A DNA stretch of 64,000 nucleotides from an uncultured Planctomycetales bacterium (GCA_964612665.1 CAZTCI010000002.1:147659-211658); one strand, 5' to 3'. Positions 1 through 16,745 are shown, counted from the stretch's first letter. Program-made: numbers and translations. Notes: generated by a model not told the origin, from the sequence alone.

Positions 1-738
1 GGTTTAGCAAAGGATCGTCATGAGGCCGCGGCGCGGGCGATTTTGACGACGGATTTAAAGACAAAGGAGATTGCGGTTGAAATCAATTTAGGTGGCAAGA
101 AAGTGACAATCGGCGGGTGCGCCAAGGGTTCAGGAATGATTCAACCTAATATGGCGACGATGCTGGCTTTTATCACAACGGACGCGGCGATTTCTCATGC
201 GATGCTTAAAGCCGCTTTAAAGCAGGCGGTCAATCTTTCGTTCAATGCTATTACCATCGATGGTTGCATGAGTACGAATGATATGGTGACAGTGATGGCG
301 AGCGGTTTGGCTGGAAACAAAACCATCAATTCTGAAAATCAGGATTTTAAAATTTTTGTTGAGGCGTTAAATTTTGTTTGTTTGGATTTGGCTAAAAAGA
401 TTGTTATCGACGCTGAAGGCGCGACCAAATTTATTGGGATCGTCGTGTCAGGTGCGGCCAATAAAGCCCAAGCAAAGAAAGTCGCTTTGGCGATTGCTAA
501 TTCTAATCTGGTTAAATGCGCCGCATACGGCAGCGATCCAAATTGGGGGCGGGTCGCGGCGGCGGTTGGTTCGTTAGGATTTAATATTACGGAAAAAGAT
601 TTGAAGATTCGTTTCAGTTCATTTGCCAAAAAAGAAATCACGATTACCGTTGATCTAACCCAAGGAAAAGAAAGCGCGACGATTTATACCGCGGATCTGA
701 GTATCGAATATGTCAAAATCAATGGACGATATAATTAA
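1..738 (+). CDS. argJ: Glutamate N-acetyltransferase / ornithine acetyltransferase ArgJ, 5'-truncated at the window edge
   Basis: Frame open from position 1. Autoproteolysis motif ATML and a conserved C-terminal ArgJ block (GCAKGSGMIQPNMATMLAFITTDA). Confidence 0.85.
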   Translation, partial: GLAKDRHEAAARAILTTDLKTKEIAVEINLGGKKVTIGGCAKGSGMIQPNMATMLAFITTDAAISHAMLKAALKQAVNLSFNAITIDGCMSTNDMVTVMASGLAGNKTINSENQDFKIFVEALNFVCLDLAKKIVIDAEGATKFIGIVVSGAANKAQAKKVALAIANSNLVKCAAYGSDPNWGRVAAAVGSLGFNITEKDLKIRFSSFAKKEITITVDLTQGKESATIYTADLSIEYVKINGRYN

Positions 739-1582
739 AAAAGCGAATGTTTTAGTTGAGGCGATTCCCTACATTCATGATTTTAGGGGAAAGGTTTTTG
801 TTATCAAATATGGCGGAAGTATTTTGGATAATGAAACCATCCGAAAACATGTTTTGGAAGATATTGTATTTTTAAGTTACGTCGGTATCCGAACGATTTT
901 GGTCCACGGCGGCGGCGTTCACATCAGCACGCGTCTTAAGGAAACCGGCCGGAAAGCGGAATTTCATGACGGAATCCGGGTTACTGACGAACATACTTTA
1001 AAGATTGTTAGTGAGGAGCTCGATAAACTTAACAAGCAAATTGTTCGTGAAGTCAAGACGCTTAAAGGTGATGTGACCGGTCTTAAAGGTGAAGAAAATA
1101 TTATCCGGGTTGAAAAAAAGAAAGCCGCTAAAGAACTTGGCTTCGTGGGGTCAATTACTTCAATTAATCGTGGGGCGATTGAAGCGCACCTAAAGAAAGG
1201 CCGGATTACAGTTGTCTCGCCGATGGGAATTAGCATTGAGCAACAGCCGCACAATGTTAACGCTGATGAAGTCGCCAGTGCGATTGCTGCATCGCTTGAG
1301 GCTGAAAAACTTGTATTGCTGACCAACGTTCCAGGAGTTTTACGTCATGCCGACGATCTGGAGTCTCTCATTTCAACACTTACGATCGATGAGATCGATA
1401 ACCTCATTAAAAATAATGTGATTCAAAGCGGGATGATTCCGAAAGTTAACGCCTGTATCGAAGCGCTTAACGGAGGTGTTAAGAAAACCCATATTATCGA
1501 TGCCCGTTTTCATCACGCACTTCTTTTAGAGTTCTTTACAGATCTGGGGGTCGGCACTCAGATTATAAATTCTTCGCCATAA
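710..1582 (+). CDS. argB: Acetylglutamate kinase
   Basis: Amino-acid kinase family N-terminus VIKYGGSIL; ArgB-like length; sits next to argJ and argD. Confidence 0.9.
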   Translation: MSKSMDDIIKKANVLVEAIPYIHDFRGKVFVIKYGGSILDNETIRKHVLEDIVFLSYVGIRTILVHGGGVHISTRLKETGRKAEFHDGIRVTDEHTLKIVSEELDKLNKQIVREVKTLKGDVTGLKGEENIIRVEKKKAAKELGFVGSITSINRGAIEAHLKKGRITVVSPMGISIEQQPHNVNADEVASAIAASLEAEKLVLLTNVPGVLRHADDLESLISTLTIDEIDNLIKNNVIQSGMIPKVNACIEALNGGVKKTHIIDARFHHALLLEFFTDLGVGTQIINSSP

Positions 1583-1611
1583 TATTGAAAGTTTTTTAAC
1601 GACGATCGGAC

Positions 1612-1653
1612 GCGGGCGGCCCCGGCATTGATTCAGCGCCGCCGGGGCCGCCC
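1612..1653 (+). promoter_or_regulatory. Very GC-rich 13-bp-stem hairpin (GGGCGGCCCCGGC / GCCGGGGCCGCCC) in the argB-argD spacer, with no T-tract after it
   Basis: Perfect inverted repeat read directly; it stands out in a 40% GC genome. Could be an intra-operon RNA structure or attenuator. Confidence 0.4.
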
Positions 1654-1670
1654 TGGCACAACTTTTCAAA

Positions 1671-2861
1671 ATGAAAAAACCAGAAATCTTCAAAACCTAC
1701 GACGATTACATCCTTTCAACCTACACCCGAACACCGGCGATCTTTGTTAAAGGCAAGGGGATGATGCTCATGGATATCGATGGAAAAAAATATTTGGATT
1801 TTTTTCCAGGCTGGGGTGTCAATAACGTTGGGCATTGTCATCCTAAAGTCATGTCTGCTGTGAGGGATCAAATTGGCACGTTGATTCATATCCCCAATAA
1901 TTTTTATCATCCCAACCAAGCCAAATTAGCCAAAGAGATCGTGCGGTGGTCGTTTCCTTCAAAAGTATTTTTTTGTAACAGCGGCGCTGAAGCAGCGGAA
2001 GCCGCGATCAAGTTTGCCCGCGCATTTGGAATGGGTAAGCGATTTGAAATCATTTCCACTTTGAATTCGTTTCACGGCCGGACGCTTGGGGCGCTTTCGG
2101 CGACGGGACAGAAAAAATATCAAGAAGGTTTTTCACCACTTGTTTCCGGGTTTAAAACAATTCCCTTCAATGATCTAAAGGCGCTAGAAGCCGCAATTAC
2201 GCCTGAGACAATCGCAATTATGTTTGAGCTCGTGCAAGGCGAAGGCGGCATAAATGTCGCCGGCATTGAATATGTCAAAAAAGTGCGGCAGATTTGTGAC
2301 GACAAAAAAATCCTTCTGATCTTTGATGAAGTGCAAACTGGCATGGGCCGCACGGGAGAGATGTTTGGATTTAAGCATTACGGTGTTGTTCCAGATTTAA
2401 TGATGCTCGCGAAAGCGCTCGGCGGTGGATTGCCGATCGGCGCGTTGGTTGTAAAAAAAGAATTGGCAGATACGTTTAAACCTGGCATGCATGCTTCAAC
2501 TTTTGGCGGAAGTCCGCTGGTTTGCAAAGCGTCTCTAGGTGTTTTTAAAGCGATCGACAAATATAAAATGCTTAAAAATACCAAAGTCATGGGTCAATAT
2601 CTCAAAGAAAAATTAGAAGCACTAAAAGTAAAATTCGATTGCATCCAAGAGGTCCGCGGTTTAGGATTAATGCTTGGTGTCGAGTTAAAAATAGAAGGGA
2701 AGGCCGTTGTCGATGAGTGTTTTAAACAAGGCCTTATCATTAATTGCACTCAACATAAAGTTCTCCGGATTATGCCGGTGCTCAACGTTACAAAAAAACA
2801 AATCGACAAGGCCATTTACATTTTAACGCAAGCCATACAAAAAGTATCGCCCAACCCATGA
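1671..2861 (+). CDS. argD: Acetylornithine aminotransferase (class III PLP aminotransferase)
   Basis: Class-III aminotransferase motifs (DEVQTGMGRTG, ASTFGGSP); arginine operon context. Confidence 0.85.
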   Translation: MKKPEIFKTYDDYILSTYTRTPAIFVKGKGMMLMDIDGKKYLDFFPGWGVNNVGHCHPKVMSAVRDQIGTLIHIPNNFYHPNQAKLAKEIVRWSFPSKVFFCNSGAEAAEAAIKFARAFGMGKRFEIISTLNSFHGRTLGALSATGQKKYQEGFSPLVSGFKTIPFNDLKALEAAITPETIAIMFELVQGEGGINVAGIEYVKKVRQICDDKKILLIFDEVQTGMGRTGEMFGFKHYGVVPDLMMLAKALGGGLPIGALVVKKELADTFKPGMHASTFGGSPLVCKASLGVFKAIDKYKMLKNTKVMGQYLKEKLEALKVKFDCIQEVRGLGLMLGVELKIEGKAVVDECFKQGLIINCTQHKVLRIMPVLNVTKKQIDKAIYILTQAIQKVSPNP

Positions 2862-3781
2862 AAAAAAGAGATCTTATTAGCATTAAGGAATTAACACCCC
2901 AAGAAATCATAGGACTTTTGGATTTGGCCCGGAAACTGAAAAAGGCCAAAGGCAAACGGACCAAAGATCTCGATGGCAAGTCCGTTGGGCTTTTGTTTCA
3001 AAAGCCCTCGAACCGTACCCGCGTTTCCTTTGAAGTCGCGGTGTGGCAACTCGGCGGCAATTGCATTTACTTAAGTCCCGAAGAAATTGATTTAGGCAAA
3101 CGCGAATCCGTCGCAGATGTTGCCAAGACATTGTCGCGTTATCTGGACTGTCTGGTCGCTCGGACGTTTACACACGCGGACATTTTAGATTTAGTTAAAT
3201 ATTCATCGATCCCAATCATTAACGGACTTTCGGATTTGTTTCATCCTTGTCAAGCGCTCGCGGATTTGCAGTCGGTGCGTGAACATTTCGGGAAATTAAA
3301 AGGAATTACACTCGCCTACATTGGCGACGGCAACAATGTCTGTCATTCCTTGATGCTCGGCTGCGCGCAAACTGGAATGCATATGCGCATGGCAACGCCT
3401 AAACAATACGAACCTTTAGAAGAAGTTATTAAAGCCGCTTACGCTATCGCCAAACAAACGGGCTCTAAGATTTCCTTTACAAATGATCCCAGAGAAGCAG
3501 TGAAAGACGTTCAAGTAATTTATTCAGATGTCTGGGTCAGCATGGGACAGGAATCTGAAACCAAACGCCGGCTCAAAGATTTTGAAGGATTTCAAATCGA
3601 TGACAAATTAGCCGCGCTCGCCGATAAAGATTATATCTTTATGCACTGCCTGCCAGCGCACCGGGGGCTGGAAGTTTCTTCCAGTATCATCGACGGGCCG
3701 CACTCAATTGTGTTTGACCAGGCGGAAAACCGGCTGCACGTGCAAAAAGCGATTTTAATATTTTTACTTCGAGGAAAATAA
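2858..3781 (+). CDS. argF: Ornithine carbamoyltransferase
   Basis: STRTRVSFE carbamoyl-phosphate binding motif and HCLP motif; start overlaps the argD stop. Confidence 0.85.
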   Translation: MKKRDLISIKELTPQEIIGLLDLARKLKKAKGKRTKDLDGKSVGLLFQKPSNRTRVSFEVAVWQLGGNCIYLSPEEIDLGKRESVADVAKTLSRYLDCLVARTFTHADILDLVKYSSIPIINGLSDLFHPCQALADLQSVREHFGKLKGITLAYIGDGNNVCHSLMLGCAQTGMHMRMATPKQYEPLEEVIKAAYAIAKQTGSKISFTNDPREAVKDVQVIYSDVWVSMGQESETKRRLKDFEGFQIDDKLAALADKDYIFMHCLPAHRGLEVSSSIIDGPHSIVFDQAENRLHVQKAILIFLLRGK

Positions 3782-4110
3782 TGATTGGATCGAAGGAAAA
3801 ACTGCAATTACCAAACGCTCTTATTGACGACATTGTTCATATTATTTCAAGACAGAAAAAAGTTCAAAGGATTGTGTTATTTGGATCCTGGGCGACTGGA
3901 ACAGCCAAGAAAACTTCTGATATTGATTTGGCCATTTTTGGAAAAGACTTAACTGATCTTGATTTGAGTTTAATAAAAGATGAATTGGAAGAAAAAGTTG
4001 AAACAGCATTAAAATTTGATGTTTTGCATTTTGATTCTTTAGTCAAAGAATCCTTAAAAAATGATATTTTAAACGAAGGTATCACAATTTATGAGCCCAA
4101 AGCGGATTAA
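3781..4110 (+). CDS. Minimal nucleotidyltransferase (MNT/MntA-like), antitoxin-type
   Basis: LFGSWATGTAKKTSDIDLAIF = GS-x9-DxD polymerase-beta nucleotidyltransferase motif; 109 aa; overlaps the argF stop. Confidence 0.7.
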   Translation: MIGSKEKLQLPNALIDDIVHIISRQKKVQRIVLFGSWATGTAKKTSDIDLAIFGKDLTDLDLSLIKDELEEKVETALKFDVLHFDSLVKESLKNDILNEGITIYEPKAD

Positions 4111-4510
4111 GCAACGGTTTAATGATTTTGATCATGCTTTAGAAAGGCTTAAAGAAGTCTTAAACGAAGATCCAAAGAAAACCAGTATTGTCGTCGATGC
4201 AACGATCAAAAGGTTTGAATTCACGTTTGAGTTATCTTGGAAACTGCTGCAGGTTGTTCTCGCTTTTGAGGCAATAGATGTGCAGACGCCTCGCGCCATT
4301 ATTAAAGAAGCATTTCAAAAAGGATTGATTCAAAATGGAGATGAGTGGATTCAAATGTTGGAAGACCGTAACAAAACGTCTCATATCTATGATGAGATTC
4401 AAGCTAATGCTATTTATCAGAAGATTAAAAACAAATATTGTAGCTTACTAGATGCATTACGTGTTCATATTAAGGCAATGATTCAGAATATTGATGGAGA
4501 ATTGAAATGA
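4091..4510 (+). CDS. HepT-like / HI0074-family nucleotidyltransferase substrate-binding (HEPN) protein
   Basis: 139 aa partner overlapping the MNT by 20 nt. R-x4-H HEPN motif (RNKTSH). Its stop overlaps the argG start (ATGA). Confidence 0.65.
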   Translation: MSPKRIKQRFNDFDHALERLKEVLNEDPKKTSIVVDATIKRFEFTFELSWKLLQVVLAFEAIDVQTPRAIIKEAFQKGLIQNGDEWIQMLEDRNKTSHIYDEIQANAIYQKIKNKYCSLLDALRVHIKAMIQNIDGELK

Positions 4511-5670
4511 AAAAAGTTGTTTTGGCTTATTCAGGCGGATTGGACACCTCCTGCGCGATCAAATGGCTTGAGGACAAAGGGTATGAAGTCATCGCTTTTA
4601 TCGCTGACGTCGGGCAGAAGGAAGATTTTGAATCGATTAAAAAGCGGGCGATGTCGACCGGCGCTAAAAAAGTTTATGTGCTGGATTTGAAAAAAGAATT
4701 CGTAAACGATTATGTGTTTGCGGCGCTTAAATCCGGCGCGGTTTATGAACGGAAATATTTTATGGCGACTTCGTTGTCGCGGCCGATTATCGCCAAATAC
4801 CAAGTTCAAATCGCCCACAAAGAAAAAGCCAGCGCCATTGCTCACGGCTGCACGGGAAAAGGGAATGATCAAGTTCGGTTTGAAGTGACCGCCAAAATTC
4901 TTGATCCCAAGTTAGAAAATATCGCGCCCTTGCGGATTTGGGAATTTAAAACGCGCGATGAAGAAATTGATTACGCCCGGGCCAAAGGGATTCCGGTTGA
5001 TGTGACCAAAAAGAAACCGTATTCCATTGATAAAAATATTTACGGCATGAGTATCGAAGCTGGAATTTTAGAAGACCCGTGGATCGAACCGCCCGAGGAC
5101 ATTTATCAAATGACGGTCAGTCCCATGAAAGCGCCCAACAAACCAACCTACATCGAAATCGAATTTGAAAAAGGGATTCCAGTCAAACTCGACGGCAAAT
5201 CTTATAACGGCATCGATCTTTTGCAAAAGCTAAACGAAATCGGCGGCGCTAACGCGATCGGCCGGGTTGATATGGTTGAAAACCGTTTGGTCGGCATTAA
5301 ATCACGGGAGATCTATGAATGCCCGTCGGGCACAATCCTTTATACCGCTCATCAAGAATTAGAAGCGCTCGTCCTAGACCGGGAAACCATGCGCTACAAA
5401 CAAATGATTGCACTCAAGTACGCCGAAATTATTTACTACGGCCTCTGGGAAACGCCGCTTAAAAAACAATTAGACGCTTACATCAATAAGACGCAAGAAA
5501 ACGTAAGTGGCACCATTCGGTTGAAGCTTTATAAAGGGAATTGTGAAGTGGTGGGGCGCAAGTCGAAGTTTTCGAGATATAAAGAGGAACTGGCAACTTA
5601 CGGTGCAAAAGATATATTTGATCAAAAGCTGTCGGAAGGGTTTATTAGAATTTTTGGGATGCCATATTAA
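4507..5670 (+). CDS. argG: Argininosuccinate synthase
   Basis: PP-loop AYSGGLDTS and conserved ArgG blocks throughout. Confidence 0.9.
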   Translation: MKKVVLAYSGGLDTSCAIKWLEDKGYEVIAFIADVGQKEDFESIKKRAMSTGAKKVYVLDLKKEFVNDYVFAALKSGAVYERKYFMATSLSRPIIAKYQVQIAHKEKASAIAHGCTGKGNDQVRFEVTAKILDPKLENIAPLRIWEFKTRDEEIDYARAKGIPVDVTKKKPYSIDKNIYGMSIEAGILEDPWIEPPEDIYQMTVSPMKAPNKPTYIEIEFEKGIPVKLDGKSYNGIDLLQKLNEIGGANAIGRVDMVENRLVGIKSREIYECPSGTILYTAHQELEALVLDRETMRYKQMIALKYAEIIYYGLWETPLKKQLDAYINKTQENVSGTIRLKLYKGNCEVVGRKSKFSRYKEELATYGAKDIFDQKLSEGFIRIFGMPY

Positions 5671-5673
5671 GTG

Positions 5674-5714
5674 ATAAAGAAGTAGAGAAGTAAGAGGTAG
5701 AGATGTAGAGAAGG
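5674..5714 (+). repeat. GTAGAGAAG-unit repeat (family 2), one copy immediately after the argG stop
   Basis: aaagaagtagagaagtaagaggtagagatgtagagaagg. A related palindromic copy lies at 59855-59957, and a partial inverted copy at 6283-6300. Confidence 0.5.
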
Positions 5715-5739
5715 CGCGTTGGCAAACGCTTAACCGAAC

Positions 5740-6261
5740 ATGGTGCTGTCAAAAGAAGAAAAATTATTTCGACGAATTTTTGGGAAATTGAAACCAATTG
5801 AATTTAATGTTTGGTTTGATGGCACCCGTATTGTTCTTCTGATAAGTAATTCATTTAAGATTACAATGCTTTTTACCAAGGCCCAATGGATTAGCTTTAA
5901 AACAACAATGAGTAAAACTATTGATTCAACCATATACTCTGAAGACGACATAGGTTGTAGTGGCATTGATGTTTTAAAAGGAGAAATATATTTTTATAAT
6001 TTAAAAATTCAGCAAAAAATTTATGAGGTTTCAAAAAGCAGGGACATTGGTCAAAAAGAATTTAAGAAGATTAAGCAGAAACAGCGTGACATAAAGAAGC
6101 ATCGGCTTACAAAACAGATTTTGTTTAAGATTGGAGAAAATGTTGAGGTTGATGTTCCTCGTCGAAAGTTTACAAAGTTTAGGAATTTCATACTGGCTGC
6201 AGAAACTCAAACAAGTATTGATCGAGATCAAAAGAATAGATCATTAGAGAAAGTGAAATAA
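5740..6261 (+). CDS. Hypothetical Lys-rich protein (173 aa) in an AT-rich insert between argG and argH
   Basis: Long ORF with no recognisable domain; local AT content clearly higher than the flanking arg genes; flanked by family-2 repeat fragments. Confidence 0.35.
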   Translation: MVLSKEEKLFRRIFGKLKPIEFNVWFDGTRIVLLISNSFKITMLFTKAQWISFKTTMSKTIDSTIYSEDDIGCSGIDVLKGEIYFYNLKIQQKIYEVSKSRDIGQKEFKKIKQKQRDIKKHRLTKQILFKIGENVEVDVPRRKFTKFRNFILAAETQTSIDRDQKNRSLEKVK

Positions 6262-6322
6262 ATGAGATCTCTGCCTGTTGCTTTTCTACTTCTTATTTCT
6301 AACAAATAAAGGACAACCAAAC

Positions 6323-7669
6323 ATGACCAAACTCTGGGGCGGTCGATTTAGTAAAAAGATTAATCCGCTTGTTGACGACTTCACCAAATCTATCCATATC
6401 GACCAAAAACTCGCCTACTGCGATGTCTGGGGGTCGTTGTTTCATATTGATGTGCTCAAGGAAGCCAAGCTTTTGACAAAAGAGGAATATCAGAAGCTCC
6501 ACGATGGTCTGCACAAAATTCTAGATTCCATCCAAAACGGATCCTTTAAACCGGATTTATCCAGCGAAGACATTCACACCAACATTCAGAATGTATTAGA
6601 GAAGAAAGTCGGCGAAGTTGCACTCAAACTTCATACCTGCCGGTCGCGTAACGACCAGATTGTTTTTGATATGAAGTTATACTGCCGGCTTGAGCTTAAT
6701 CGTGTGCTAGAAATTTTAGATGGTTGCAAAAAAAGTTTGTACGCGTTGGCTGACAAGAACAAATCGTTATACATGCCGGGGTACACGCATCTGCAGCACG
6801 CGATCCCGATTCACATCGGAGATTATTTGATGGCGTATGTTGAGATGCTCAATCAAGATGAACGGCGGCTGACGCATATTCAAGATAATATTAATTTAAC
6901 GATGGGCTCGGGCGCTTTGGCTGGAACGTTTATTGAAGCTGAGCATTACAATCAGGCGATGAAATCTGCGGCGGTTGAATTAGGTATTGTGAAACCATCA
7001 ACGAATTCCATTTATACGGTAAGCGACCGGGATTTTATTCTTGAAATTTTAAGTGCGCTTGCGATTGTGGGGATGCATTTGTCGCGGCTGGCTGAGGATT
7101 TTATTCTTTGGTCGACGAAAGAATTTGATTTTATCGACATTGATGACGCTTTCTGCACGGGAAGTTCGCTCATGCCGCAAAAGAAAAACCCGGATGTCCT
7201 TGAATTGATCAGAGGCTATAGCGGACGGTTGTACGGCAACCTGGTCAATATGTTGGTTCTGATGAAAGGCCTGCCGCTTTCCTACAACCGGGACATGCAG
7301 CACGACAAAGAACCGCTGTTTGATTCGTTATCCGTGGTTGAAAACGAACTGAAAGTATTAACCGAGCTGCTTAAAAATGTTTCCTTCAAAAAAGAAACGC
7401 TTGCCAAACAGCTCGCCGATGAATGTCTTTATGCAACGGACATGGCCGATCATCTCGTCCAAAACGGGGTTGCCTTTAAACAAGCGCATCACATCATCGG
7501 CCGGTTAATCCATTATAAACTTCAAACCAAAAATGAAATTGTATCGATGAGTAAAGAAGAGCTGGTGCAATTTCATCCGGCTTTAACACCATCGATTGTG
7601 CAAAAAATTATTGATCCGGCTTTCTCGGTTGGTTCCAAAAAATCTATTCGGCGTAAAAAAGGAAAATAG
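6323..7669 (+). CDS. argH: Argininosuccinate lyase
   Basis: MTKLWGGRFSK N-terminus and fumarate-lyase signature region (GSSLMPQKKNPD). RBS aaaggac upstream of 6323. Confidence 0.9.
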   Translation: MTKLWGGRFSKKINPLVDDFTKSIHIDQKLAYCDVWGSLFHIDVLKEAKLLTKEEYQKLHDGLHKILDSIQNGSFKPDLSSEDIHTNIQNVLEKKVGEVALKLHTCRSRNDQIVFDMKLYCRLELNRVLEILDGCKKSLYALADKNKSLYMPGYTHLQHAIPIHIGDYLMAYVEMLNQDERRLTHIQDNINLTMGSGALAGTFIEAEHYNQAMKSAAVELGIVKPSTNSIYTVSDRDFILEILSALAIVGMHLSRLAEDFILWSTKEFDFIDIDDAFCTGSSLMPQKKNPDVLELIRGYSGRLYGNLVNMLVLMKGLPLSYNRDMQHDKEPLFDSLSVVENELKVLTELLKNVSFKKETLAKQLADECLYATDMADHLVQNGVAFKQAHHIIGRLIHYKLQTKNEIVSMSKEELVQFHPALTPSIVQKIIDPAFSVGSKKSIRRKKGK

Positions 7670-7670
7670 C

Positions 7671-8927
7671 ATGCATGACTTTCGGTTTAAAGGTCAGGAA
7701 TTGTACTGTGAATCAGTCAAGGTAAGCGCGATTGCCAAAGAAGTTGGAACGCCGTTTTATCTTTACAGCCACCACACGCTCGTCGATCACTTCACCAAAA
7801 TTAAAAAAGCCTTTGCGCCGGTCCACCCGATTGTTTGTTTCGCGATGAAGGCAAACGGAAATTTGGCGGTTCTACGGACGCTTATTAAGGAAGGCGCGGG
7901 CATTGATATTGTTTCTCAAGGAGAATTGCTGAAAGCCTTAAAAGCCGGCGCCGATCCTAAAAAGATTGTGTTTGCTTCCGTCGGAAAAACCGACGCCGAA
8001 ATCGTCTTTGCAATCAAGACCGGGATTTTGTTCTTTAATGTTGAATCCGTTCCAGAATTGGAAGCCATTGAACGCGTGGCGAAATCATTGAATAAAACAA
8101 CCCAAGCGGCGCTGCGCGTTAATCCGGATGTTGAAGCGGCAACACACCACTTTATTACGACGGGAACTTTAAAAAATAAATTCGGCATTGATCTTAAATC
8201 AACGCACCATATTTTAAAATCTCAAAAAAAATATCCGCACGTCAAAATAAACGGACTGCACATTCATATCGGCTCGCAATTAACTTCGCGTGATCCTTTT
8301 GTGAAAGCCATCACGAAAGTGATTGAGTTTATTTCCTCCTTGAAACAGGAAGGGATTTCGATTGAATATCTGGACATCGGCGGCGGGATGGGGATTGTTT
8401 ACAAGGATGAAAAACCGCAGACTGCTCAGGAATATGCTGATGCGGTTCTGCCGCTTTTGCAAAAAAATTCCCTTAAGATCATCATGGAGCCTGGCCGTTT
8501 TATCGTCGGCAACGCTGGCATTTTTGTGACCAAGCTTTTGTACATTAAAGACAATGGTTATAAGAAGTTCATGATCGTCGACGGCGCGATGAATGATCTT
8601 ATTCGTCCTTCTTTATATCAGGCCTATCATGAAATTGTGCCGCTAAAAAAGTCGAAGGCCAGGGCTGAGAAATTTGATATTGTCGGCCCAGTGTGTGAGA
8701 GCGGAGACTTTTTTGCGAAAGAACGTCTATTGCCGAAACTCAAAGAGAATGATTTTCTAGCTATCATGAGCGCCGGTGCGTACGGTTATGTCATGTCCAG
8801 TAACTATAACGCCCGCTGCCGTGTGCCGGAAGTCATGGTCAAAGGGAATCAATATCACGTCGTTAAAGAGCGCGAAACGTACGACGATTTAATACGTGGG
8901 GAGAATATTCCGGGATTTTTGAAGTGA
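7671..8927 (+). CDS. lysA: Diaminopimelate decarboxylase
   Basis: Fold-III PLP decarboxylase; VGPVCESGD motif typical of LysA; ATG directly after the argH stop. Confidence 0.85.
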   Translation: MHDFRFKGQELYCESVKVSAIAKEVGTPFYLYSHHTLVDHFTKIKKAFAPVHPIVCFAMKANGNLAVLRTLIKEGAGIDIVSQGELLKALKAGADPKKIVFASVGKTDAEIVFAIKTGILFFNVESVPELEAIERVAKSLNKTTQAALRVNPDVEAATHHFITTGTLKNKFGIDLKSTHHILKSQKKYPHVKINGLHIHIGSQLTSRDPFVKAITKVIEFISSLKQEGISIEYLDIGGGMGIVYKDEKPQTAQEYADAVLPLLQKNSLKIIMEPGRFIVGNAGIFVTKLLYIKDNGYKKFMIVDGAMNDLIRPSLYQAYHEIVPLKKSKARAEKFDIVGPVCESGDFFAKERLLPKLKENDFLAIMSAGAYGYVMSSNYNARCRVPEVMVKGNQYHVVKERETYDDLIRGENIPGFLK

Positions 8928-8936
8928 AGGTTTCCG

Positions 8937-9533
8937 ATGAACAAATTAGACTATAAAAAATTCTTGGAGGCCTACAGAATTACAACTGGCAAATCTTCTT
9001 CAAAAAATAACCAAAGAAAGGCCTTTGAACTTTGGCAAGAGCTGGCTAAAAAATATGTCCGTTCGGCTTTTTATTTAGGGGTTTGTTATGACCAGGGATT
9101 TGGAATCAATAAAAATTTGAAGAAAGCATTTGAATGGTATAAAGTCGCCGGTGATGACGGACACTTAGAGGCAATGTATAATTTGTTCCTCATGTATCGC
9201 GATGGTGTAGGAGTGAAGAGAAATAATAGATTGGCCTTAAAGTGGTTAAATATGGCAGCAGAAAGAGGAGATGCTTCAGCAATTGGGGATCTCGGTTATT
9301 GCTATCATGAAGGTAAATTGCTTTCTAAAAATTTGACCAAGGCAGCAACTCTTTATCATCGAGCAGCGCAGATGGGTGATGTGAAATCCCAATGGAATTT
9401 AGCTTTGTGCTATCTATCGGGTGATGGAATTCGACTACCATCTGAACGCTGGGGAAAATATTGGTTAACAAAAGCTGCAAAAAGTGGACACGTCAAGGCC
9501 ACAAAAAAACTGAGAGAATATATCAAGAAGTAA
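8937..9533 (+). CDS. Sel1-repeat (TPR-like) protein
   Basis: Four or five repeats of the type AxxWYxKAAxQGxxxAQxxLGxxY. Confidence 0.6.
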   Translation: MNKLDYKKFLEAYRITTGKSSSKNNQRKAFELWQELAKKYVRSAFYLGVCYDQGFGINKNLKKAFEWYKVAGDDGHLEAMYNLFLMYRDGVGVKRNNRLALKWLNMAAERGDASAIGDLGYCYHEGKLLSKNLTKAATLYHRAAQMGDVKSQWNLALCYLSGDGIRLPSERWGKYWLTKAAKSGHVKATKKLREYIKK

Positions 9534-9542
9534 TGAAATAAA

Positions 9543-9905
9543 ATGCAGCAAGGAGAAAGAATTTCGAGATTTTATAAAAAGGTATTTATGACTTCGAAAG
9601 ACTATAAAATTGCTAGGGAATTGAAACTCAAATTAAATAAAATTGTTCCGCTTATTGATTTTCGGGTTTTCGGCTCAAGGGCCCGAGGGGATGCTCAAAA
9701 GGATTCTGATATGGATGTATTTATTGAAGTGCCTAGGTTAAATAAAAATTTGAAAAAAAGAATTTTACACGTGACTTGGGAAGTAAGTTTTAAATATCTT
9801 ATTGTTATTTCAAGTTTGATTTTTTCCCAAGAAGAGGTCGAAAAGTCTCCGTTGAGAGCCTCCCAAATAATAAGAAATATTTTCGAAGAAGGAATAAAAG
9901 TGTGA
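9543..9905 (+). CDS. Minimal nucleotidyltransferase (MNT) domain protein
   Basis: VFGSRARGDAQKDSDMDVFIE motif. The start may be the internal ATG at 9588, which has a better RBS. Confidence 0.65.
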   Translation: MQQGERISRFYKKVFMTSKDYKIARELKLKLNKIVPLIDFRVFGSRARGDAQKDSDMDVFIEVPRLNKNLKKRILHVTWEVSFKYLIVISSLIFSQEEVEKSPLRASQIIRNIFEEGIKV

Positions 9906-10294
9906 CGGACTTAGAATCATTATTTCATTTTAGAATACAGCAGGCTGAAGAAACACTTCAAGATGCCCAGAAACTGATTAAATCAGGGGCAACGCCGCGT
10001 TCAATTACTAATCGAGCTTATTATGCTGTCTTTTATGCCATCTTAGCGCTTCTTATTAAGGAAAACATAGCGCTGAAGACCTCAAAGCACTCCGGCGTTA
10101 TTGCTGTTTTTAACAAAGAATTTGTCAAGACGAAGAAATTTGAAAAACACTATTCAGAGATTGTTCATTATTTATTTAGGGCCCGACAAGAAGTTGATTA
10201 TAAAGATTTTGTCAACCCATTATTGGAAGATGCCGAAGAAAATTTAAAACTTGCTAAAGAGTTTGTTCAACAGGTTAAAAAGTTTATTGGATAA
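9902..10294 (+). CDS. HEPN domain protein, partner of the preceding MNT
   Basis: HEPN helix RAYYAVFYAILALL and an R-x4-DY motif; 4-nt overlap with the MNT gene. Confidence 0.6.
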   Translation: MTDLESLFHFRIQQAEETLQDAQKLIKSGATPRSITNRAYYAVFYAILALLIKENIALKTSKHSGVIAVFNKEFVKTKKFEKHYSEIVHYLFRARQEVDYKDFVNPLLEDAEENLKLAKEFVQQVKKFIG

Positions 10295-10298
10295 AAAA

Positions 10299-11123
10299 AT
10301 GTCTGAAAAAATTCCTTTCACCAAAATGGTCGGCGCGGGCAATGATTTTATTGTGATTGAACCGCAGAAGAATTTTGACCTGAAAAAATTTACGACCGAA
10401 GTTTGCAACCGACATAATGGAATCGGCGCCGACGGAGTTTTGGTGGTTGAGCCTTCTAAAAAAGCGGATTATAAAATGCGGATCATTAATTCTGACGGAT
10501 CCGAAGCGGAAATGTGCGGTAACGGTGTGCGGTGTCTGGCTTCTTATATTGTGGCGACCCGAGAGGAAAAGAAAAAACCATTTTCAATTGAGACGTTGGC
10601 TGGTATTATTCTCGCCGAAGCCAAAGATGAAATCGCCAATGTGCGTTTAAGTGATCCTAAAGATTATCAAGCGAACATCAAAATCAATGTGCACGATCGT
10701 CCGCTGACAGTTCACTATATTGATACCGGTGTTCCGCACACGATCGTGTTTGTGGCAGATCTTTCAACAATTGACGTCAATCGCATCGGTCCGCTCATTC
10801 GTTATCACGAACATTTTAAACCGCGCGGCACGAATGTAAATTTTGTTGAAGAGCTTGATCAGGATTTTATTGAATTGCGGACGTATGAGCGCGGGGTTGA
10901 AGCGGAAACGCTCGCTTGCGGCACGGGATCGGTTGCAGCAGGTTTGATCGGATTTAGGCACGCGAATCCAGACATCCGTCGGAAAAAAGGCGCCGCGGTC
11001 AAAGTTAAAACGAAAAGCGGCGAAGTGTTAGACATTACTTTTGATCTAGACGGCCAAAAGATTTCCAATGTATGGCTTAAAGGCAGCGCTAAATTTATAG
11101 CAAGGGGAGAATATTATGTTTAA
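10299..11123 (+). CDS. dapF: Diaminopimelate epimerase
   Basis: GAGNDFIVIE and CGNG active-site motifs. Confidence 0.85.
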   Translation: MSEKIPFTKMVGAGNDFIVIEPQKNFDLKKFTTEVCNRHNGIGADGVLVVEPSKKADYKMRIINSDGSEAEMCGNGVRCLASYIVATREEKKKPFSIETLAGIILAEAKDEIANVRLSDPKDYQANIKINVHDRPLTVHYIDTGVPHTIVFVADLSTIDVNRIGPLIRYHEHFKPRGTNVNFVEELDQDFIELRTYERGVEAETLACGTGSVAAGLIGFRHANPDIRRKKGAAVKVKTKSGEVLDITFDLDGQKISNVWLKGSAKFIARGEYYV

Positions 11124-12003
11124 GGGGTCGATTGTCGCGATCGCAACACCGTTTAAAGATGGACAGGTCGATGAAGCGAATTTAAAGGAGCTCGTTGAAT
11201 TTCAAATTAAAAACGGGACGGCGGGCATTGTTCCGTGCGGAACAACGGGTGAGTCGCCCACGTTATCGACGGCTGAACATGAACGGGTGATTGAGATTTG
11301 CATCAAGGCCGCGCGCAAACGCGTGCCGATTATCGCCGGCACGGGTTCAAACTCGACGGACGAAGCGGTGTCGTTGACCAAACACGCCGCTGATGCGGGT
11401 GCCAACGCGGTTTTGGTTGTCAGTCCTTACTATAATAAACCAACCCAAAAAGGTTTGTATCTTCACTTCAAAGAGATCGCAACCAGCGTCGATATTCCTA
11501 TTATTCTCTACAACATTGCCGGGCGAACCGGCGTTAATATTGAACCCTCAACGATTGCGCAACTCGCCAAAGATTGTTCGAATATCGTCGGCGTTAAAGA
11601 AGCCTCAGGCTCGCTTGAACAAATGGCGATGATTAAGCATTTGTGTCCGGATAATTTTGTTCTTTTATCCGGCGATGACGTGTTGACCTTGCCGGTTTTA
11701 AGTATCGGTGGGATCGGCGTGATTTCGGTTGTGGCGAACATCGTTCCTAACGCCGTGGCGCAATTGATTGAAATATTTAACAAAGGAGACCTTAAAAAAG
11801 CCCAGGCGCTTCACTACAAACTATTGCCGCTGGTTAAAGCGATGTTTATTGAAACCAATCCAATTGCGGTTAAAACTGCAATGGGATTGATGGATCTATG
11901 TTCAGGCGAATTACGTTTACCGCTTTGTCCGATGGCGGATGAAAATCTGTCAAAACTCAAAAAAGCCCTTCGGGATTACGGGCTCATGAAAGGAAAATCA
12001 TGA
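11116..12003 (+). CDS. dapA: 4-hydroxy-tetrahydrodipicolinate synthase
   Basis: GTTGE motif and DapA-family blocks. Confidence 0.9.
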   Translation: MFKGSIVAIATPFKDGQVDEANLKELVEFQIKNGTAGIVPCGTTGESPTLSTAEHERVIEICIKAARKRVPIIAGTGSNSTDEAVSLTKHAADAGANAVLVVSPYYNKPTQKGLYLHFKEIATSVDIPIILYNIAGRTGVNIEPSTIAQLAKDCSNIVGVKEASGSLEQMAMIKHLCPDNFVLLSGDDVLTLPVLSIGGIGVISVVANIVPNAVAQLIEIFNKGDLKKAQALHYKLLPLVKAMFIETNPIAVKTAMGLMDLCSGELRLPLCPMADENLSKLKKALRDYGLMKGKS

Positions 12004-12719
12004 TCAAACTCGCGGTCAGCGGCGCGTTAGGCCGCATGGGGCAGCGTATCACTCACTTAGCATCAGAAGACAAAACTTTTAAAATCACAACTCTCCTCGA
12101 GAACGCCAACCATCCGCGACTTTCCGAAACCTCGCACGAACGGACCATTGCAACCAATCCTTCCTCATTAAAGGGATCACAAGTTTTAATTGAATTCACC
12201 TCACCCCAAGCTACCCTCGAACATCTCGATGCCTGTTTAAAATATAAAGTCAAAATGGTCATCGGCACAACGGGTTTTTCCGATACCGAAATCCGCCAAA
12301 TCAAAAAAGCTTCTCAGAAGATTCCCATCGTCTTTTCCTCTAATATGTCAGTTGGCGTCAATCTTGTCTTTAAACTGCTTAAAGAAGCCGCTTCGACCTT
12401 GGGTTCTGATTACAAAATTAAAATTGTCGAAGGGCATCACATCCACAAAAAAGACGCGCCGTCCGGCACCGCCAAAACCATGGCGCAGGTGATTGAAGAT
12501 AATTCCAAACATAAAGTCAGCGACATCAAATCCATCCGCGAAGGCGAAATCATCGGCGATCACGATGTCGTTTTTGAAAGTGATGTGGATGTCATCAAAA
12601 TCTTTCATCACGCCAAGACCCGCGATATTTTTGCAAAAGGATCTATCGTTGCTGCGAAGTTTGTTGCTAAGAAAACGAAGGGACTATTCAATATGCAGGA
12701 TGTGCTTGGACTGAAATAG
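12000..12719 (+). CDS. dapB: 4-hydroxy-tetrahydrodipicolinate reductase
   Basis: N-terminal Rossmann fold (AVSGALGRMG) and EGHHxHKKDAPSGTA motif. Confidence 0.85.
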   Translation: MIKLAVSGALGRMGQRITHLASEDKTFKITTLLENANHPRLSETSHERTIATNPSSLKGSQVLIEFTSPQATLEHLDACLKYKVKMVIGTTGFSDTEIRQIKKASQKIPIVFSSNMSVGVNLVFKLLKEAASTLGSDYKIKIVEGHHIHKKDAPSGTAKTMAQVIEDNSKHKVSDIKSIREGEIIGDHDVVFESDVDVIKIFHHAKTRDIFAKGSIVAAKFVAKKTKGLFNMQDVLGLK

Positions 12720-12748
12720 GTGTTAGGTGTCAGGTTTTAGGTGTTAAG
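12717..12748 (+). repeat. TAGGTGT heptamer repeat element (family 1), overlapping the dapB stop
   Basis: taggtgttaggtgtcaggttttaggtgttaag. Near-identical to an inverted copy at 61199-61236. Confidence 0.55.
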
Positions 12749-12771
12749 ATAAAAATAAAAAAAAGATTGGC

Positions 12772-12915: not shown

Positions 12916-13003
12916 TAAGAAAATGCAGCAAAGGATTCGTGCGTGGCAGAAGTAAGATGGACAAGAGAAGCGCAAGGTTATTTATAAGAAGAAGAGGAGT
13001 GAT

Positions 13004-16332: not shown

Positions 16333-16344
16333 GTTTTTAAATAT

Positions 16345-16423: not shown

Positions 16424-16470
16424 AAATTTAAAAACAAATTTTAACAACAAACGGAGGGAGGTGATAAGGT

Positions 16471-16722: not shown

Positions 16723-16745
16723 CCCACGCATTGGGAAAAATAAAG

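What the first reader, a model, noticed from the sequence alone, without database searches (positions are those of the whole stretch)
3781..4510. Three MNT-HEPN/HepT pairs, each wedged into a conserved biosynthetic operon with start/stop overlaps
Seen: pair 1 (3781-4510) lies between argF and argG; pair 2 (9543-10294) lies between lysA/Sel1 and dapF; pair 3 (42570-43282) lies inside the men operon. Each pair overlaps its neighbours by 1-20 nt. Pair 1 is overlapped by both argF and argG (TAATG and ATGA). All three share GS-x9-DxD nucleotidyltransferase motifs and R-x4-H or R-x4-DY HEPN motifs, but the three pairs are diverged from each other, so they were not recently duplicated. Established: HEPN/MNT (HepT/MntA) pairs are type VII-like toxin-antitoxin systems in which MntA AMPylates HepT. 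Inference: repeated, tightly coupled insertion into essential operons may be an addiction strategy. It also means these toxin-antitoxin genes are co-transcribed with arginine, lysine and menaquinone biosynthesis.
Basis: partly seen in the sequence, partly recalled or inferred. Interest (0 to 1): 0.6.

Follow-up and report, generated by a model that had tools for sequence, protein, structure and literature searches.

The report
Toxin-antitoxin cassettes inserted into biosynthetic operons
Three small two-gene toxin–antitoxin-type cassettes (nucleotidyltransferase plus HEPN protein) really do sit inside the arginine, lysine and menaquinone operons of an uncultured Omnitrophota bacterium, but they look like ordinary mobile cargo in a tightly packed genome, not a new kind of system.

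Summary
Three intact MNT–HEPN gene pairs lie at the stated coordinates, on the operon strand, between argF/argG, between lysA/dapF and between menD/menB. Independent assemblies reproduce all three junctions.

The pairs are not one family:
- Pair 1 is a Class I module (HI0074/PF08780 HEPN with RX4HXY). This is the class for which toxicity and antitoxin-mediated AMPylation have been shown experimentally.
- Pairs 2 and 3 are Class II modules (PF05168/UPF0332, R-x3-D-Y plus K-H-S, no catalytic His). A 2020 study stated that this class had no biochemical characterisation.

Ten related Omnitrophota loci share the argJBDF-argGH-lysA-dapFAB-dapL-folK-panC super-operon.
- The more distant six are compact.
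- The four closest carry different small cargo at different junctions: BrnT, HicA, MNT–HepT, AbiEii-like and other nucleotidyltransferases, an IS200-like transposase and GIY-YIG.
- The cassettes are therefore lineage-specific insertions, and they have lower GC3 than the genes flanking them.

Tight or overlapping junctions are the norm here (35 of 60 same-strand junctions). Only pair 1 overlaps both neighbours. Pair 3 is part of a 3.5-kb composite island.

A deliberate "addiction strategy" is not needed. Permissive insertion with read-through expression in a compact, one-strand genome fits better. This is a new member of a known kind, of moderate interest.

The parts
3781..4110 (+). MNT1: 109-aa minimal nucleotidyltransferase, the predicted antitoxin of the Class I pair. 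Motif G35-S36-x10-D47-x-D49. Its ATG shares one base with the argF stop (TAATG).
   Evidence: Pfam Polbeta 2.5e-18 and NTP_transf_2 1.1e-13. NCBIfam MntA_antitoxin 51.8 bits, below the cut-off of 60. Motif and junction. GC3 0.255 against 0.47-0.50 in argF/argG.
4091..4510 (+). HEPN1: 139-aa HI0074-family HEPN protein, the predicted RNase toxin of the Class I pair. Motif R93-NKTS-H98-I-Y100 (RX4HXY). It overlaps MNT1 by 20 nt, and its stop overlaps the argG ATG (ATGA).
   Evidence: Pfam NTase_sub_bind 1.3e-36. NCBIfam TIGR01987 HI0074 125.5 bits, above the cut-off of 55.8; HepT_toxin 26.6 bits, below 60. PDB sequence hits 1wty (4e-23) and the L. pneumophila HEPN toxin 8xdj (1.5e-16). RX4HXY is present in 117 of the 120 listed proteins (query itself included).
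9543..9905 (+). MNT2: minimal nucleotidyltransferase of a Class II pair, 120 aa (105 aa if it starts at 9588). Motif GS-x10-DMD.
   Evidence: Pfam NTP_transf_2 2.9e-11. Motif. The gene caller on an independent contig chose the 105-aa start.
9902..10294 (+). HEPN2: 130-aa Class II HEPN (PF05168/UPF0332). It has R95-x3-D99-Y100 and K62-H63-S64 and no RX4H. GTGA overlap with MNT2; 4 nt before the dapF ATG at 10299.
   Evidence: Pfam HEPN 2.4e-17. PDB hits 9xbd (3.6e-10) and AF0298 2hsb. Y40, Y41, Y45, H63, R95 and D99 are invariant in all 102 aligned sequences and Y100 in 101 of 102. The best non-self homolog is 59% identical.
42570..42902 (+). MNT3: 110-aa minimal nucleotidyltransferase of the second Class II pair. 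Motif GS-x10-DLD. A strong Shine-Dalgarno sequence (AAGGAGGG) lies inside the 3' end of the upstream helicase gene.
   Evidence: Pfam NTP_transf_2 3.4e-7 and Polbeta 4.8e-7. Sequence.
42899..43282 (+). HEPN3: 127-aa Class II HEPN (UPF0332) with R89-EIA-D93-Y94 and K56-H57-S58. ATGA overlap with MNT3.
   Evidence: Pfam HEPN 2.1e-13. The 119 listed non-self homologs are 71-81% identical; the few that carry a source name are labelled Deltaproteobacteria, Nitrospirae/Nitrospirota, Brocadia, Actinobacteria and Elusimicrobiota. In the two complete examples the MNT lies upstream with a 4-nt overlap; in the third the upstream ORF is cut by the contig end and was not searched. Motifs.
8937..9533 (+). 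Sel1-repeat protein (198 aa). It is co-inserted cargo at the lysA/dapF junction, absent from the compact operons of relatives.
   Evidence: Pfam Sel1 9.9e-36. No tblastn match in any related locus at >50% query coverage; the lysA/dapF spacing there is 2-129 nt. GC3 0.347.
5740..6261 (+). 173-aa ORF of unknown family between argG and argH. It is further junction cargo.
   Evidence: No Pfam or NCBIfam hit. No tblastn match in relatives at >50% query coverage, where the argG/argH spacing is 1-202 nt. GC3 0.276.
40985..42568 (+). Pif1-like SF1B helicase with a C-terminal WYL domain. It is the first gene of the 3.5-kb block between menD and menB. Its GTG start overlaps the menD stop.
   Evidence: Pfam PIF1 1.1e-33 and WYL 7.6e-7. 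PADLOC RecD-like and PDC-S68 hits. No match between menD and menB in any of the 52 menB-anchored metagenome loci >=6 kb that were scanned. Its GC3 (0.525) is like that of the host genes.
43285..44033 (+). Zeta-toxin-like P-loop kinase gene, split into 43285-43539 and 43638-44033 by a hairpin-rich insert of about 150-180 bp (27-nt imperfect inverted repeats at 43480-43506 and 43636-43662).
   Evidence: Pfam on the two halves. The rejoined 192-aa protein matches Zeta_toxin over residues 4-151 at 40.2 bits, above the cut-off of 22.3. Inverted repeat. Two independent contigs end inside the insert.
44030..44440 (+). Two small ORFs: 58 aa at 44030-44206 and a hydrophobic 66 aa at 44240-44440. A 38-nt direct repeat (44160-44197 and 44437-44474) brackets the second ORF and duplicates the 3' end of the first.
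   Evidence: the repeat finder family D1, 89% identity. Translations. No significant Pfam hit.

Best explanation
The window comes from an uncultured Candidatus Omnitrophota bacterium whose genes are packed head-to-tail on one strand.

Three unrelated MNT-HEPN cassettes were acquired horizontally. Each landed at a junction between genes of long housekeeping operons: argF|argG, lysA|dapF and menD|menB. They are co-oriented with the operon, carry no terminator-like sites, and are separated from their neighbours by at most a few bases. I infer that they are transcribed by read-through from the operon promoters and translated by coupling or re-initiation.

Pair 1 is a Class I (type VII-like) module. 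HEPN1 is predicted to be an RNase toxin. MNT1 is predicted to neutralise it by transferring AMP to the tyrosine of RX4HXY (Y100).

Pairs 2 and 3 are Class II modules. The nucleotidyltransferase is intact. The HEPN partner has an invariant R-x3-D-Y plus K-H-S constellation in place of RX4H. By analogy I expect the tyrosine to be nucleotidylated, but the toxic activity of this class, if any, is not established.

Their position inside operons most likely reflects where small co-oriented cassettes are tolerated in this genome architecture. Retention may be helped by the general difficulty of losing TA genes and by polar effects of imprecise deletions. I do not think it reflects a dedicated operon-targeting strategy.

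What is shown: gene identities, motifs, junction geometry, insertion polarity, and the compositional contrast with flanking genes. What is inferred: co-transcription, toxicity, AMPylation, and the reason for retention.
For: - Identity of the pairs: Pfam, NCBIfam and PDB hits and motifs.
- Class I / Class II definitions and the experimental status of each: Yao et al. 2020, PMC7641770. A Class I PF08780-type example in L. pneumophila has toxicity and AMPylation shown: PMC11586414.
- Organism and synteny: ArgG is 73-82% identical to Omnitrophota MAGs, and the 14-gene arg-lys-dap-folK-panC order is conserved.
- Insertion polarity: L008, L009, L010, L011, L022 and L029 are compact. L005, L006, L007 and L013 each carry different cargo at different junctions:
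  - L005 argF/argG: BrnT.
  - L006 argF/argG: DUF6968 plus a membrane ORF.
  - L007 argF/argG: Y1 (IS200-like) transposase.
  - L006 dapA/dapB: MNT plus HepT.
  - L006 dapB/dapL: HicA.
  - L007 dapF/dapA: GIY-YIG.
  - L007 dapB/dapL: a nucleotidyltransferase whose only hit above Pfam's cut-off is Aminoglyc_resit (DUF6036 marginal).
  - L013 argH/lysA: an AbiEii-like nucleotidyltransferase.
- No Pif1, MNT, HEPN or zeta homolog lies between menD and menB in any of the 52 menB-anchored loci >=6 kb that were scanned.
- Composition: the twelve inserted genes have mean GC3 0.33, against 0.41-0.53 for the flanking biosynthetic genes.
- Mobility: HEPN3 relatives at 71-81% identity occur in several phyla in unrelated contexts. 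More distant Class II pairs (33-45% identity) are on plasmids. HEPN1-type pairs sit co-directionally in other housekeeping arrays; L166 has three pairs within 4 kb next to queH. [quoted passage not shown]
- Genome-wide packing: 35 of 60 junctions are <=20 nt, and native junctions also use 4-nt overlaps. In L013 argF/argG itself is an ATGA overlap, which HEPN1 has taken over here.
- Promoter- and terminator-like sites in 1-17000 are not above shuffled expectation, and no terminator-like site lies at a cassette junction.
- Precedent: chromosomal TA loci in E. coli are reported as horizontally transferred and integrated in intergenic regions between core genes (PMC5120126, citing Ramisetty and Santhosh 2016).
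Against: - No expression data, so co-transcription is inferred from geometry only. AT-rich inserts could hide internal promoters; one promoter-like match ends at 3782, at the MNT1 start.
- Low GC3 is not unique to the inserts. The type IV pilus cluster at 23-36 kb is similarly low. The contrast is therefore local evidence, not proof of foreign origin.
- The nearest available relatives are only about 80% identical in ArgG. Insertion events cannot be dated, and no empty site is seen in a truly close relative.
- By my own tally, 7 of 13 junction insert blocks across five genomes contain TA or TA-like modules.
- No target-site duplications or terminal repeats flank pairs 1 and 2. The insertion mechanism is unknown.
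Confidence: 0.72

Rival explanations
1. Embedding in essential biosynthetic operons is itself a selected addiction strategy. Because the cassette is translationally and transcriptionally fused to indispensable genes, it cannot be silenced or deleted without polar damage, and so it persists.
For: - Pair 1 is fused seamlessly on both sides, and the argG Shine-Dalgarno sequence and start codon lie inside HEPN1.
- By my tally, TA or TA-like modules make up about 7 of 13 junction insert blocks in five related genomes.
- The one MNT-HepT pair found in 183 kb of relatives is also inside the operon, at dapA/dapB in L006.
- Homologous cassettes elsewhere keep 70-200 nt flanks, so the tight fusion here is a derived state.
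Against: - Tight or overlapping junctions are the genome-wide norm here (35 of 60). Nearly the whole window is one co-directional array. 'In an operon' is therefore the default location.
- Non-TA cargo occupies junctions too: Sel1, the 173-aa ORF, a transposase, GIY-YIG and DUF proteins.
- The cassettes are not conserved at their sites among relatives, so they do turn over.
- TA modules are the commonest small mobile cassettes anyway, so their enrichment is expected.
Confidence: 0.15
2. The modules are domesticated regulators. Because they are expressed from the arg, lys and men promoters, the ratio of HEPN to MNT activity could couple growth arrest or RNA turnover to amino-acid or quinone biosynthetic demand. 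The relA-mazEF arrangement in E. coli is the analogy.
For: - All three pairs are intact, with invariant catalytic residues.
- Each is placed so that its dosage follows operon transcription.
- E. coli mazEF lying directly downstream of relA is a precedent for a TA locus linked to a starvation-response gene. This rests on my own knowledge and was not checked here.
Against: - The cassettes are not conserved at these positions in any related genome.
- Each relative has a different family at a different junction, which argues against a conserved regulatory role.
- The composition differs from that of the flanking operon genes.
Confidence: 0.08
3. A site-directed insertion mechanism targets stop/start junctions of translationally coupled genes. 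The argF|argG and dapB|dapL junctions would then be hot spots for an unrecognised cassette-integration system.
For: - argF/argG is occupied in four of the five closest genomes (window included), by four different cargos. dapB/dapL carries inserts of 700-1174 nt in three relatives, plus a 284-nt gap here.
- In the window and in L007 the inserted ORF ends exactly on the ATGA that argF uses in L013.
- A 38-nt duplication flanks the small ORF at 44240-44440.
Against: - No integrase, attachment-site-like repeat or target-site duplication flanks pairs 1 or 2.
- The similarity of the last bases before argG is explained by the Shine-Dalgarno sequence plus an A/T-rich spacer.
- The cargos are heterogeneous, and in L005 and L006 they do not abut argG.
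- Hot spots between core genes are a general feature of horizontal transfer (my own knowledge).
Confidence: 0.05

Closest known systems
[quoted passage not shown] Examples: L. pneumophila HEPN-MNT (PDB 8xdj), Thermus TTHA0048, H. influenzae HI0074.
   Same: Pair 1 has the MNT gene upstream overlapping the HEPN gene. MNT1 carries GSX10DXD. HEPN1 is PF08780/TIGR01987 with RX4HXY. HEPN1 gives significant sequence hits to the solved L. pneumophila toxin and to TTHA0048.
   Different: Pair 1 scores below the NCBIfam equivalog cut-offs for HepT and MntA proper. It has no spacer or promoter region of its own and is fused to argF and argG by overlapping codons. Toxicity and AMPylation are untested. 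In L. pneumophila the RX4HXY Arg and His were reported not to form the catalytic site, and a metal site was implicated instead. The catalytic details may therefore differ even within this subtype.
Class II HEPN/MNT modules (PF05168 HEPN / UPF0332 with PF01909 MNT). Examples: A. fulgidus AF0298 (PDB 2hsb) and PDB 9xbd. These are the modules Yao et al. 2020 describe as having a wide distribution in hyperthermophilic bacteria and archaea.
   Same: In pairs 2 and 3 the MNT with GSX10DXD lies upstream with a 4-nt overlap. The HEPN partner lacks RX4H and has a conserved Tyr, an Asp in place of the His, and a conserved His elsewhere (K-H-S). This matches the HEPN-T description in Anantharaman et al. 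2013 and Class II in Yao et al. 2020.
   Different: They occur in a mesophile-like Omnitrophota genome (42% GC) and are embedded in lys and men operons. Pair 3 belongs to an unusually conserved clade, 71-81% identical among the listed homologs, whose few source names span several phyla. No experimental function is known for the class as of the 2020 paper.
Chromosomal TA loci integrated between core genes (E. coli type II TA loci; relA-mazEF), and the general notion of HGT hot spots flanked by core genes.
   Same: Small horizontally transferred TA cassettes sit in junctions between conserved housekeeping genes. Occupancy varies between relatives, and polar effects on neighbours are possible.
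   Different: Here the junctions lie inside long translationally coupled biosynthetic operons. The spacing is reduced to 0-9 nt. Several different TA families occupy different junctions of the same operon in sister genomes.

Membership tests
Class I HEPN/MNT (type VII HepT/MntA) as defined by Yao et al. 2020 | HEPN partner belongs to PF01934 or PF08780 | tested here: met
   HEPN1: PF08780 at 125.9 bits (cut-off 31.8) and PF01934 at 29.3 bits (cut-off 23.5). HEPN2 and HEPN3 do not match either family.
Class I HEPN/MNT (type VII HepT/MntA) as defined by Yao et al. 2020 | RX4HXY motif in the HEPN protein | tested here: met
   HEPN1 has R93-NKTS-H98-I-Y100. The motif is present in 117 of the 120 listed proteins, the query itself included. 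It is not met by HEPN2 or HEPN3, which have RQEVDY and REIADY.
Class I HEPN/MNT (type VII HepT/MntA) as defined by Yao et al. 2020 | Adjacent PF01909 nucleotidyltransferase with GSX10DXD, encoded upstream | tested here: met
   MNT1 GSWATGTAKKTSDID, 20-nt overlap with HEPN1.
Class I HEPN/MNT (type VII HepT/MntA) as defined by Yao et al. 2020 | Scores above the NCBIfam equivalog cut-offs for HepT_toxin (NF047751) and MntA_antitoxin (NF047752) | tested here: not met
   HEPN1 scores 26.6 bits and MNT1 51.8 bits, both below 60. HEPN1 instead passes TIGR01987 (HI0074 subfamily). Pair 1 is therefore the HI0073/HI0074 subtype, not HepT/MntA in the strict sense.
Class I HEPN/MNT (type VII HepT/MntA) as defined by Yao et al. 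2020 | HEPN is toxic (RNase) and is neutralised by MNT-catalysed AMPylation of the motif tyrosine | not testable with these tools
   This needs expression and toxicity assays and mass spectrometry. It has been shown for homologs only (PMC7641770, PMC11586414).
Class II HEPN/MNT (PF05168/PF01909) | HEPN partner in PF05168, lacking RX4HXY but with a conserved Tyr | tested here: met
   HEPN2 scores 63.6 bits and HEPN3 50.9 bits against PF05168 (cut-off 22). R95 and D99 are invariant in all 102 aligned sequences and Y100 in 101 of 102. Asp in place of His, with a conserved His elsewhere (H63), matches Anantharaman et al. 2013.
Class II HEPN/MNT (PF05168/PF01909) | Adjacent upstream PF01909 MNT with GSX10DXD | tested here: met
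   MNT2 GSRARGDAQKDSDMD and MNT3 GSRINGKAQEDSDLD, each with a 4-nt overlap with the HEPN gene.
Class II HEPN/MNT (PF05168/PF01909) | Functions as a toxin-antitoxin pair | not testable with these tools
   Yao et al. 2020 state that no biochemical study of Class II existed and that TA status needed validation. I found no later paper in the searchable library.
Zeta/PezT-type toxin (the neighbour of pair 3) | Intact P-loop kinase matching PF06414 | tested here: not met
   The gene is split in two. Only the artificially rejoined sequence passes the Zeta_toxin cut-off, at 40.2 bits. It is probably a pseudogene.

The most novel reading that the evidence does not exclude
In this Omnitrophota clade, stop/start junctions of essential, translationally coupled operons (notably argF|argG and dapB|dapL) are preferred landing and retention sites for toxin-antitoxin cassettes. 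The cassettes give up their own promoters and ride on operon transcription. Operon embedding would then be a distinct persistence strategy for selfish two-gene modules, or the footprint of an unrecognised junction-targeting insertion mechanism.
Probability: 0.12. Interest if true: 0.65.

Novelty: new member of a known kind. Interest (0 to 1): 0.35.

Why it matters
Taken one at a time, the cassettes are ordinary. MNT-HEPN is described as the most abundant predicted TA family in prokaryotes (PMC7641770 abstract).

The mildly interesting part is the context. One conserved 14-gene amino-acid and cofactor super-operon in a little-studied phylum acts as a string of landing sites. Sister genomes carry different TA families at different junctions. 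In this genome the cassettes have been trimmed until they share stop and start codons with arginine-biosynthesis genes.

This offers a clean natural system for three questions:
- Does embedding in an operon stabilise selfish cassettes?
- How is toxin-to-antitoxin dosage tolerated under a host promoter?
- What do the biochemically uncharacterised Class II modules do?

It is also a warning for annotation: genes that sit within a conserved operon are not necessarily part of its pathway.

Tried and rejected
- Assembly chimera: rejected. Four independent Logan assemblies reproduce every junction.
- Recent duplication of one pair: rejected. The MNTs are 22-36% identical, and HEPN1 has no detectable BLAST similarity to HEPN2 or HEPN3.
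- Target-site duplications or terminal inverted repeats around pairs 1 and 2: only short chance-level repeats were found.
- Promoter and terminator scan of 1-17000: counts equal shuffled expectation, so it is uninformative except that no terminator-like site sits at a junction.
- DNA-level homology of cassette flanks with relatives of pair 3: similarity stops at the coding sequence. No shared flank or mobile backbone was found.
- The idea that the last codons of HEPN1 are leftover argF 3' sequence: the resemblance to L013 and L007 (GGAGA..ATGA) is explained by the Shine-Dalgarno sequence plus spacer, so I do not claim it.
- Close orthologs of pairs 1 and 2 at the same junction in other genomes: none. 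The best non-self hits are 62% and 59% identical.
- men-operon comparison: only distant relatives (MenD <=53%) were available. Many have a gap of about 800 bp between menD and menB whose content I did not identify (possibly menH). None has the island genes.
- Pfam found nothing for the 47-aa ORF at 12772-12915, the BrnA-like ORF or the HicB-like ORF.
- Structure prediction and the representative-protein search were not used. The sequence-profile and PDB sequence hits were already decisive for family assignment.
Full report
**What is there**

The window (42% GC) is one co-directional gene array: every gene called between 1 and 57.4 kb is on the + strand.

Its first 16 kb encode argJ-argB-argD-argF, argG, argH, lysA, dapF-dapA-dapB, an LL-DAP-type aminotransferase, folK, panC and an aspartate dehydrogenase. 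Positions 37-49 kb encode a ubiE/menG-type methyltransferase followed by menF, menD, menB, menA, menC and menE.

- Pair 1: 3781-4110 and 4091-4510.
- Pair 2: 9543-9905 and 9902-10294.
- Pair 3: 42570-42902 and 42899-43282.

In each pair the upstream gene is a minimal nucleotidyltransferase (Pfam NTP_transf_2/Polbeta). The downstream gene is a HEPN-superfamily protein.

Independent assemblies of four sequencing runs contain the same junctions, so the arrangement is not an assembly artefact.

**The three pairs are not one family**

HEPN1 matches NTase_sub_bind/PF08780 (1.3e-36) and NCBIfam TIGR01987 (HI0074 family) above cut-off. It carries R93-NKTS-H98-I-Y100, the RX4HXY motif. It also hits the solved L. 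pneumophila HEPN toxin (8xdj) and Thermus TTHA0048.

Under the definition of Yao et al. 2020 (PMC7641770), pair 1 is a Class I HEPN/MNT module. This is the class in which the HEPN protein has been shown to be toxic and the MNT to neutralise it by adenylylating the motif tyrosine. A PF08780-type example was dissected in Legionella (PMC11586414). Pair 1 falls short of the NCBIfam equivalog cut-offs for HepT and MntA proper, so it is the HI0073/HI0074 subtype.

HEPN2 and HEPN3 are PF05168 (UPF0332) proteins. They have no RX4H. Instead they have R-x3-D-Y (RQEVDY, REIADY) and a K-H-S triplet.
- In an alignment of 102 family members, Y40, Y41, Y45, H63, R95 and D99 (HEPN2 numbering) are invariant and Y100 is conserved in 101 of 102.
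- This matches the 'HEPN-T' description of Anantharaman et al. 2013: Asp replaces His, with a conserved His elsewhere.
- It also matches 'Class II' in Yao et al. 2020. Those authors state that no biochemistry existed for this class and that TA status still needed validation.

For pairs 2 and 3 it is an extrapolation.

**They are insertions**

A scan of species-representative genomes with ArgG identified the organism as Candidatus Omnitrophota; the closest MAGs are 73-82% identical. Ten related loci share the same 14-gene order.
- Six of them (L008, L009, L010, L011, L022, L029) are compact, with all junctions at or below about 220 nt.
- The four closest (L005, L006, L007, L013) each have 0.5-1.2 kb gaps at different junctions.

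Cargo found at those junctions in the four closest relatives:

| Locus | Junction | Cargo |
|---|---|---|
| L005 | argF/argG | BrnT toxin plus a partner ORF |
| L006 | argF/argG | DUF6968 plus a membrane ORF |
| L006 | dapA/dapB | MNT plus HepT (PF01934) |
| L006 | dapB/dapL | HicA plus a partner ORF, and DUF3592 |
| L007 | argF/argG | IS200-like Y1 transposase |
| L007 | dapF/dapA | GIY-YIG nuclease |
| L007 | dapB/dapL | Nucleotidyltransferase (only Aminoglyc_resit passes Pfam's cut-off; DUF6036 marginal) plus a small ORF |
| L013 | argH/lysA | AbiEii-like nucleotidyltransferase plus a small ORF |
| L013 | dapB/dapL | DUF5674 plus two small ORFs |

In this window the Sel1 protein (8937-9533) and a 173-aa ORF (5740-6261) are further junction cargo without a match in the relatives.

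None of the 52 menB-anchored metagenome loci of at least 6 kb that I scanned has the helicase, the MNT, the HEPN or the zeta-like gene between menD and menB.

The inserted genes have GC3 of 0.26-0.41. The flanking biosynthetic genes have 0.41-0.53. Low GC3 also occurs in the pilus cluster, so this contrast is only local evidence.

In other phyla, genes interposed in the same operon were not TA-like. A rough motif screen found 3 pairs in this 64 kb, 1 in 183 kb of the Omnitrophota relatives, and 0 in 1.84 Mb of the other loci.

**Mobility of the cassettes**
- HEPN3 has well over a hundred relatives; the 119 listed are 71-81% identical. The few with a source name are labelled Deltaproteobacteria, Nitrospirae/Nitrospirota, Brocadia, Actinobacteria and Elusimicrobiota. 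In the two complete examples examined, an MNT lies upstream with a 4-nt overlap, and the neighbourhoods are unrelated.
- More distant Class II pairs (33-45% identity) are on plasmids, several of them cyanobacterial.
- HEPN1-type pairs are common in Omnitrophota and sit co-directionally in other housekeeping arrays. One contig has three pairs within 4 kb between an NnrD-like (Carb_kinase) gene and a glycosyltransferase gene, flanking queH.

**Junction geometry in context**

Pair 1 is fused on both sides. The argF stop shares a base with the MNT1 start (TAATG), and the HEPN1 stop overlaps the argG start (ATGA). The argG Shine-Dalgarno sequence lies inside HEPN1. In L013, which has no insert, argF and argG themselves overlap by ATGA. 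HEPN1 has therefore taken over the coupling position.

Pairs 2 and 3 abut their neighbours with gaps of 1-9 nt and do not overlap them. dapF most plausibly starts at the ATG at 10299, not at the upstream TTG.

Such packing is not special to the cassettes. 35 of 60 same-strand junctions in the window overlap or are at most 20 nt apart, and native junctions (argD/argF, dapA/dapB, panC/aspDH) use 4-nt overlaps.

Homologous cassettes in other genomes usually keep 70-200 nt flanks. The seamless fit here is therefore a derived, compacted state.

The promoter and terminator scans are at background level, and no terminator-like site falls on a junction. No target-site duplications or terminal repeats flank pairs 1 and 2.

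**Pair 3 sits in a composite island**

Between menD (ends 40988) and menB (starts 44516) lie:
- a Pif1-like helicase with a WYL domain, whose GTG start overlaps the menD stop;
- MNT3-HEPN3;
- a zeta-toxin-like kinase gene split by a hairpin-rich insert of about 150-180 bp;
- a 58-aa ORF;
- a 66-aa hydrophobic ORF bracketed by a 38-nt direct repeat that duplicates the end of the preceding ORF.

This looks like stepwise accretion and decay of cargo at one junction.

**Interpretation**

The best-supported reading (about 0.7) has four parts. Horizontally acquired MNT-HEPN cassettes landed at junctions of long co-directional operons. They are expressed by read-through. They were trimmed by the same pressure that compacts the rest of the genome. 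They persist because co-oriented, terminator-free small cassettes are tolerated, and perhaps because TA genes are hard to lose.

TA or TA-like modules make up roughly half of the junction cargo across five genomes. However, non-TA cargo also occupies junctions, occupancy turns over between relatives, and 'in an operon' is the default location in this genome.

A regulatory domestication model and a junction-targeting insertion mechanism are less likely still.

The phenomenon parallels the reported integration of chromosomal TA loci between core genes in E. coli.

**Verdict**

These are new members of known families (one Class I and two Class II HEPN/MNT modules) in a noteworthy but explicable genomic context. 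Interest is moderate to low (0.35). The most useful follow-ups are transcript mapping across the junctions, toxicity and AMPylation assays (especially for the uncharacterised Class II pairs), and a genome-wide occupancy test in complete Omnitrophota genomes.

Noticed in passing
window 43285-44033 (insert at about 43480-43662); partial copy at 37041-37073: A zeta-toxin-like P-loop kinase gene is split by a hairpin-rich element of about 150-180 bp with 27-nt imperfect inverted repeats. The rejoined protein passes the Pfam Zeta_toxin cut-off. Two independent contigs end inside the element, and a 33-nt partial copy (91%) lies just upstream of menG. This suggests a multi-copy MITE-like repeat.
   Followed up: partly
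window 44160-44197 and 44437-44474: A 38-nt direct repeat (89% identity) brackets a 66-aa hydrophobic ORF (44240-44440) and duplicates the 3' end of the 58-aa ORF at 44030-44206. It looks like the footprint of a nested insertion.
   Followed up: partly
window 40985-42568: A Pif1-like SF1B helicase with a C-terminal WYL domain sits between menD and menB, and its GTG start overlaps the menD stop. Its GC content is like that of the host genes. It has no match between menD and menB in the distant men-operon relatives available. It hits RecD-like and PDC-S68 candidate defence models in PADLOC.
   Followed up: partly
L005-L013 (Omnitrophota relatives), junctions of the arg-lys-dap super-operon: The argF/argG junction is occupied by four different cargos in the four occupied genomes: MNT-HEPN here, BrnT in L005, DUF6968 plus a membrane ORF in L006, and an IS200-like Y1 transposase in L007. 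dapB/dapL is occupied in L006, L007 and L013. These appear to be recurrent hot spots.
   Followed up: yes
window 5740-6261 and 8937-9533: A 173-aa ORF with no family hit (between argG and argH) and a Sel1-repeat protein (between lysA and MNT2) are also low-GC3 junction cargo without a match in related operons.
   Followed up: partly
window 12720-13003 (ORF 12772-12915): The 284-nt gap between dapB and the aminotransferase gene contains a 47-aa ORF that an independent gene call also reports. It has no Pfam hit. The same junction carries TA-like cargo in relatives, so this could be a remnant.
   Followed up: partly
L050-type hits: P0122-P0240 (homologs of HEPN3): The Class II HEPN3 clade is unusually conserved, 71-81% identical among 119 listed homologs whose source names span several phyla. 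This implies recent wide horizontal spread or very strong constraint on a protein of unknown activity.
   Followed up: partly
window 1-57400; 36157-36800: Every gene called over 57 kb is on the + strand. A tRNA-Thr/Tyr/Gly cluster sits in the only large intergenic region, upstream of the men operon. The men operon here has no menH-sized gene between menD and menB, unlike many of the metagenome loci.
   Followed up: no
L166 4697-8521: An ENA metagenome contig has three consecutive MNT/NTase_sub_bind pairs within 4 kb, co-directional with ftsH-folP-cdaA-pdxJ-acpS and queH. This is another example of these cassettes stacking inside housekeeping arrays.
   Followed up: no
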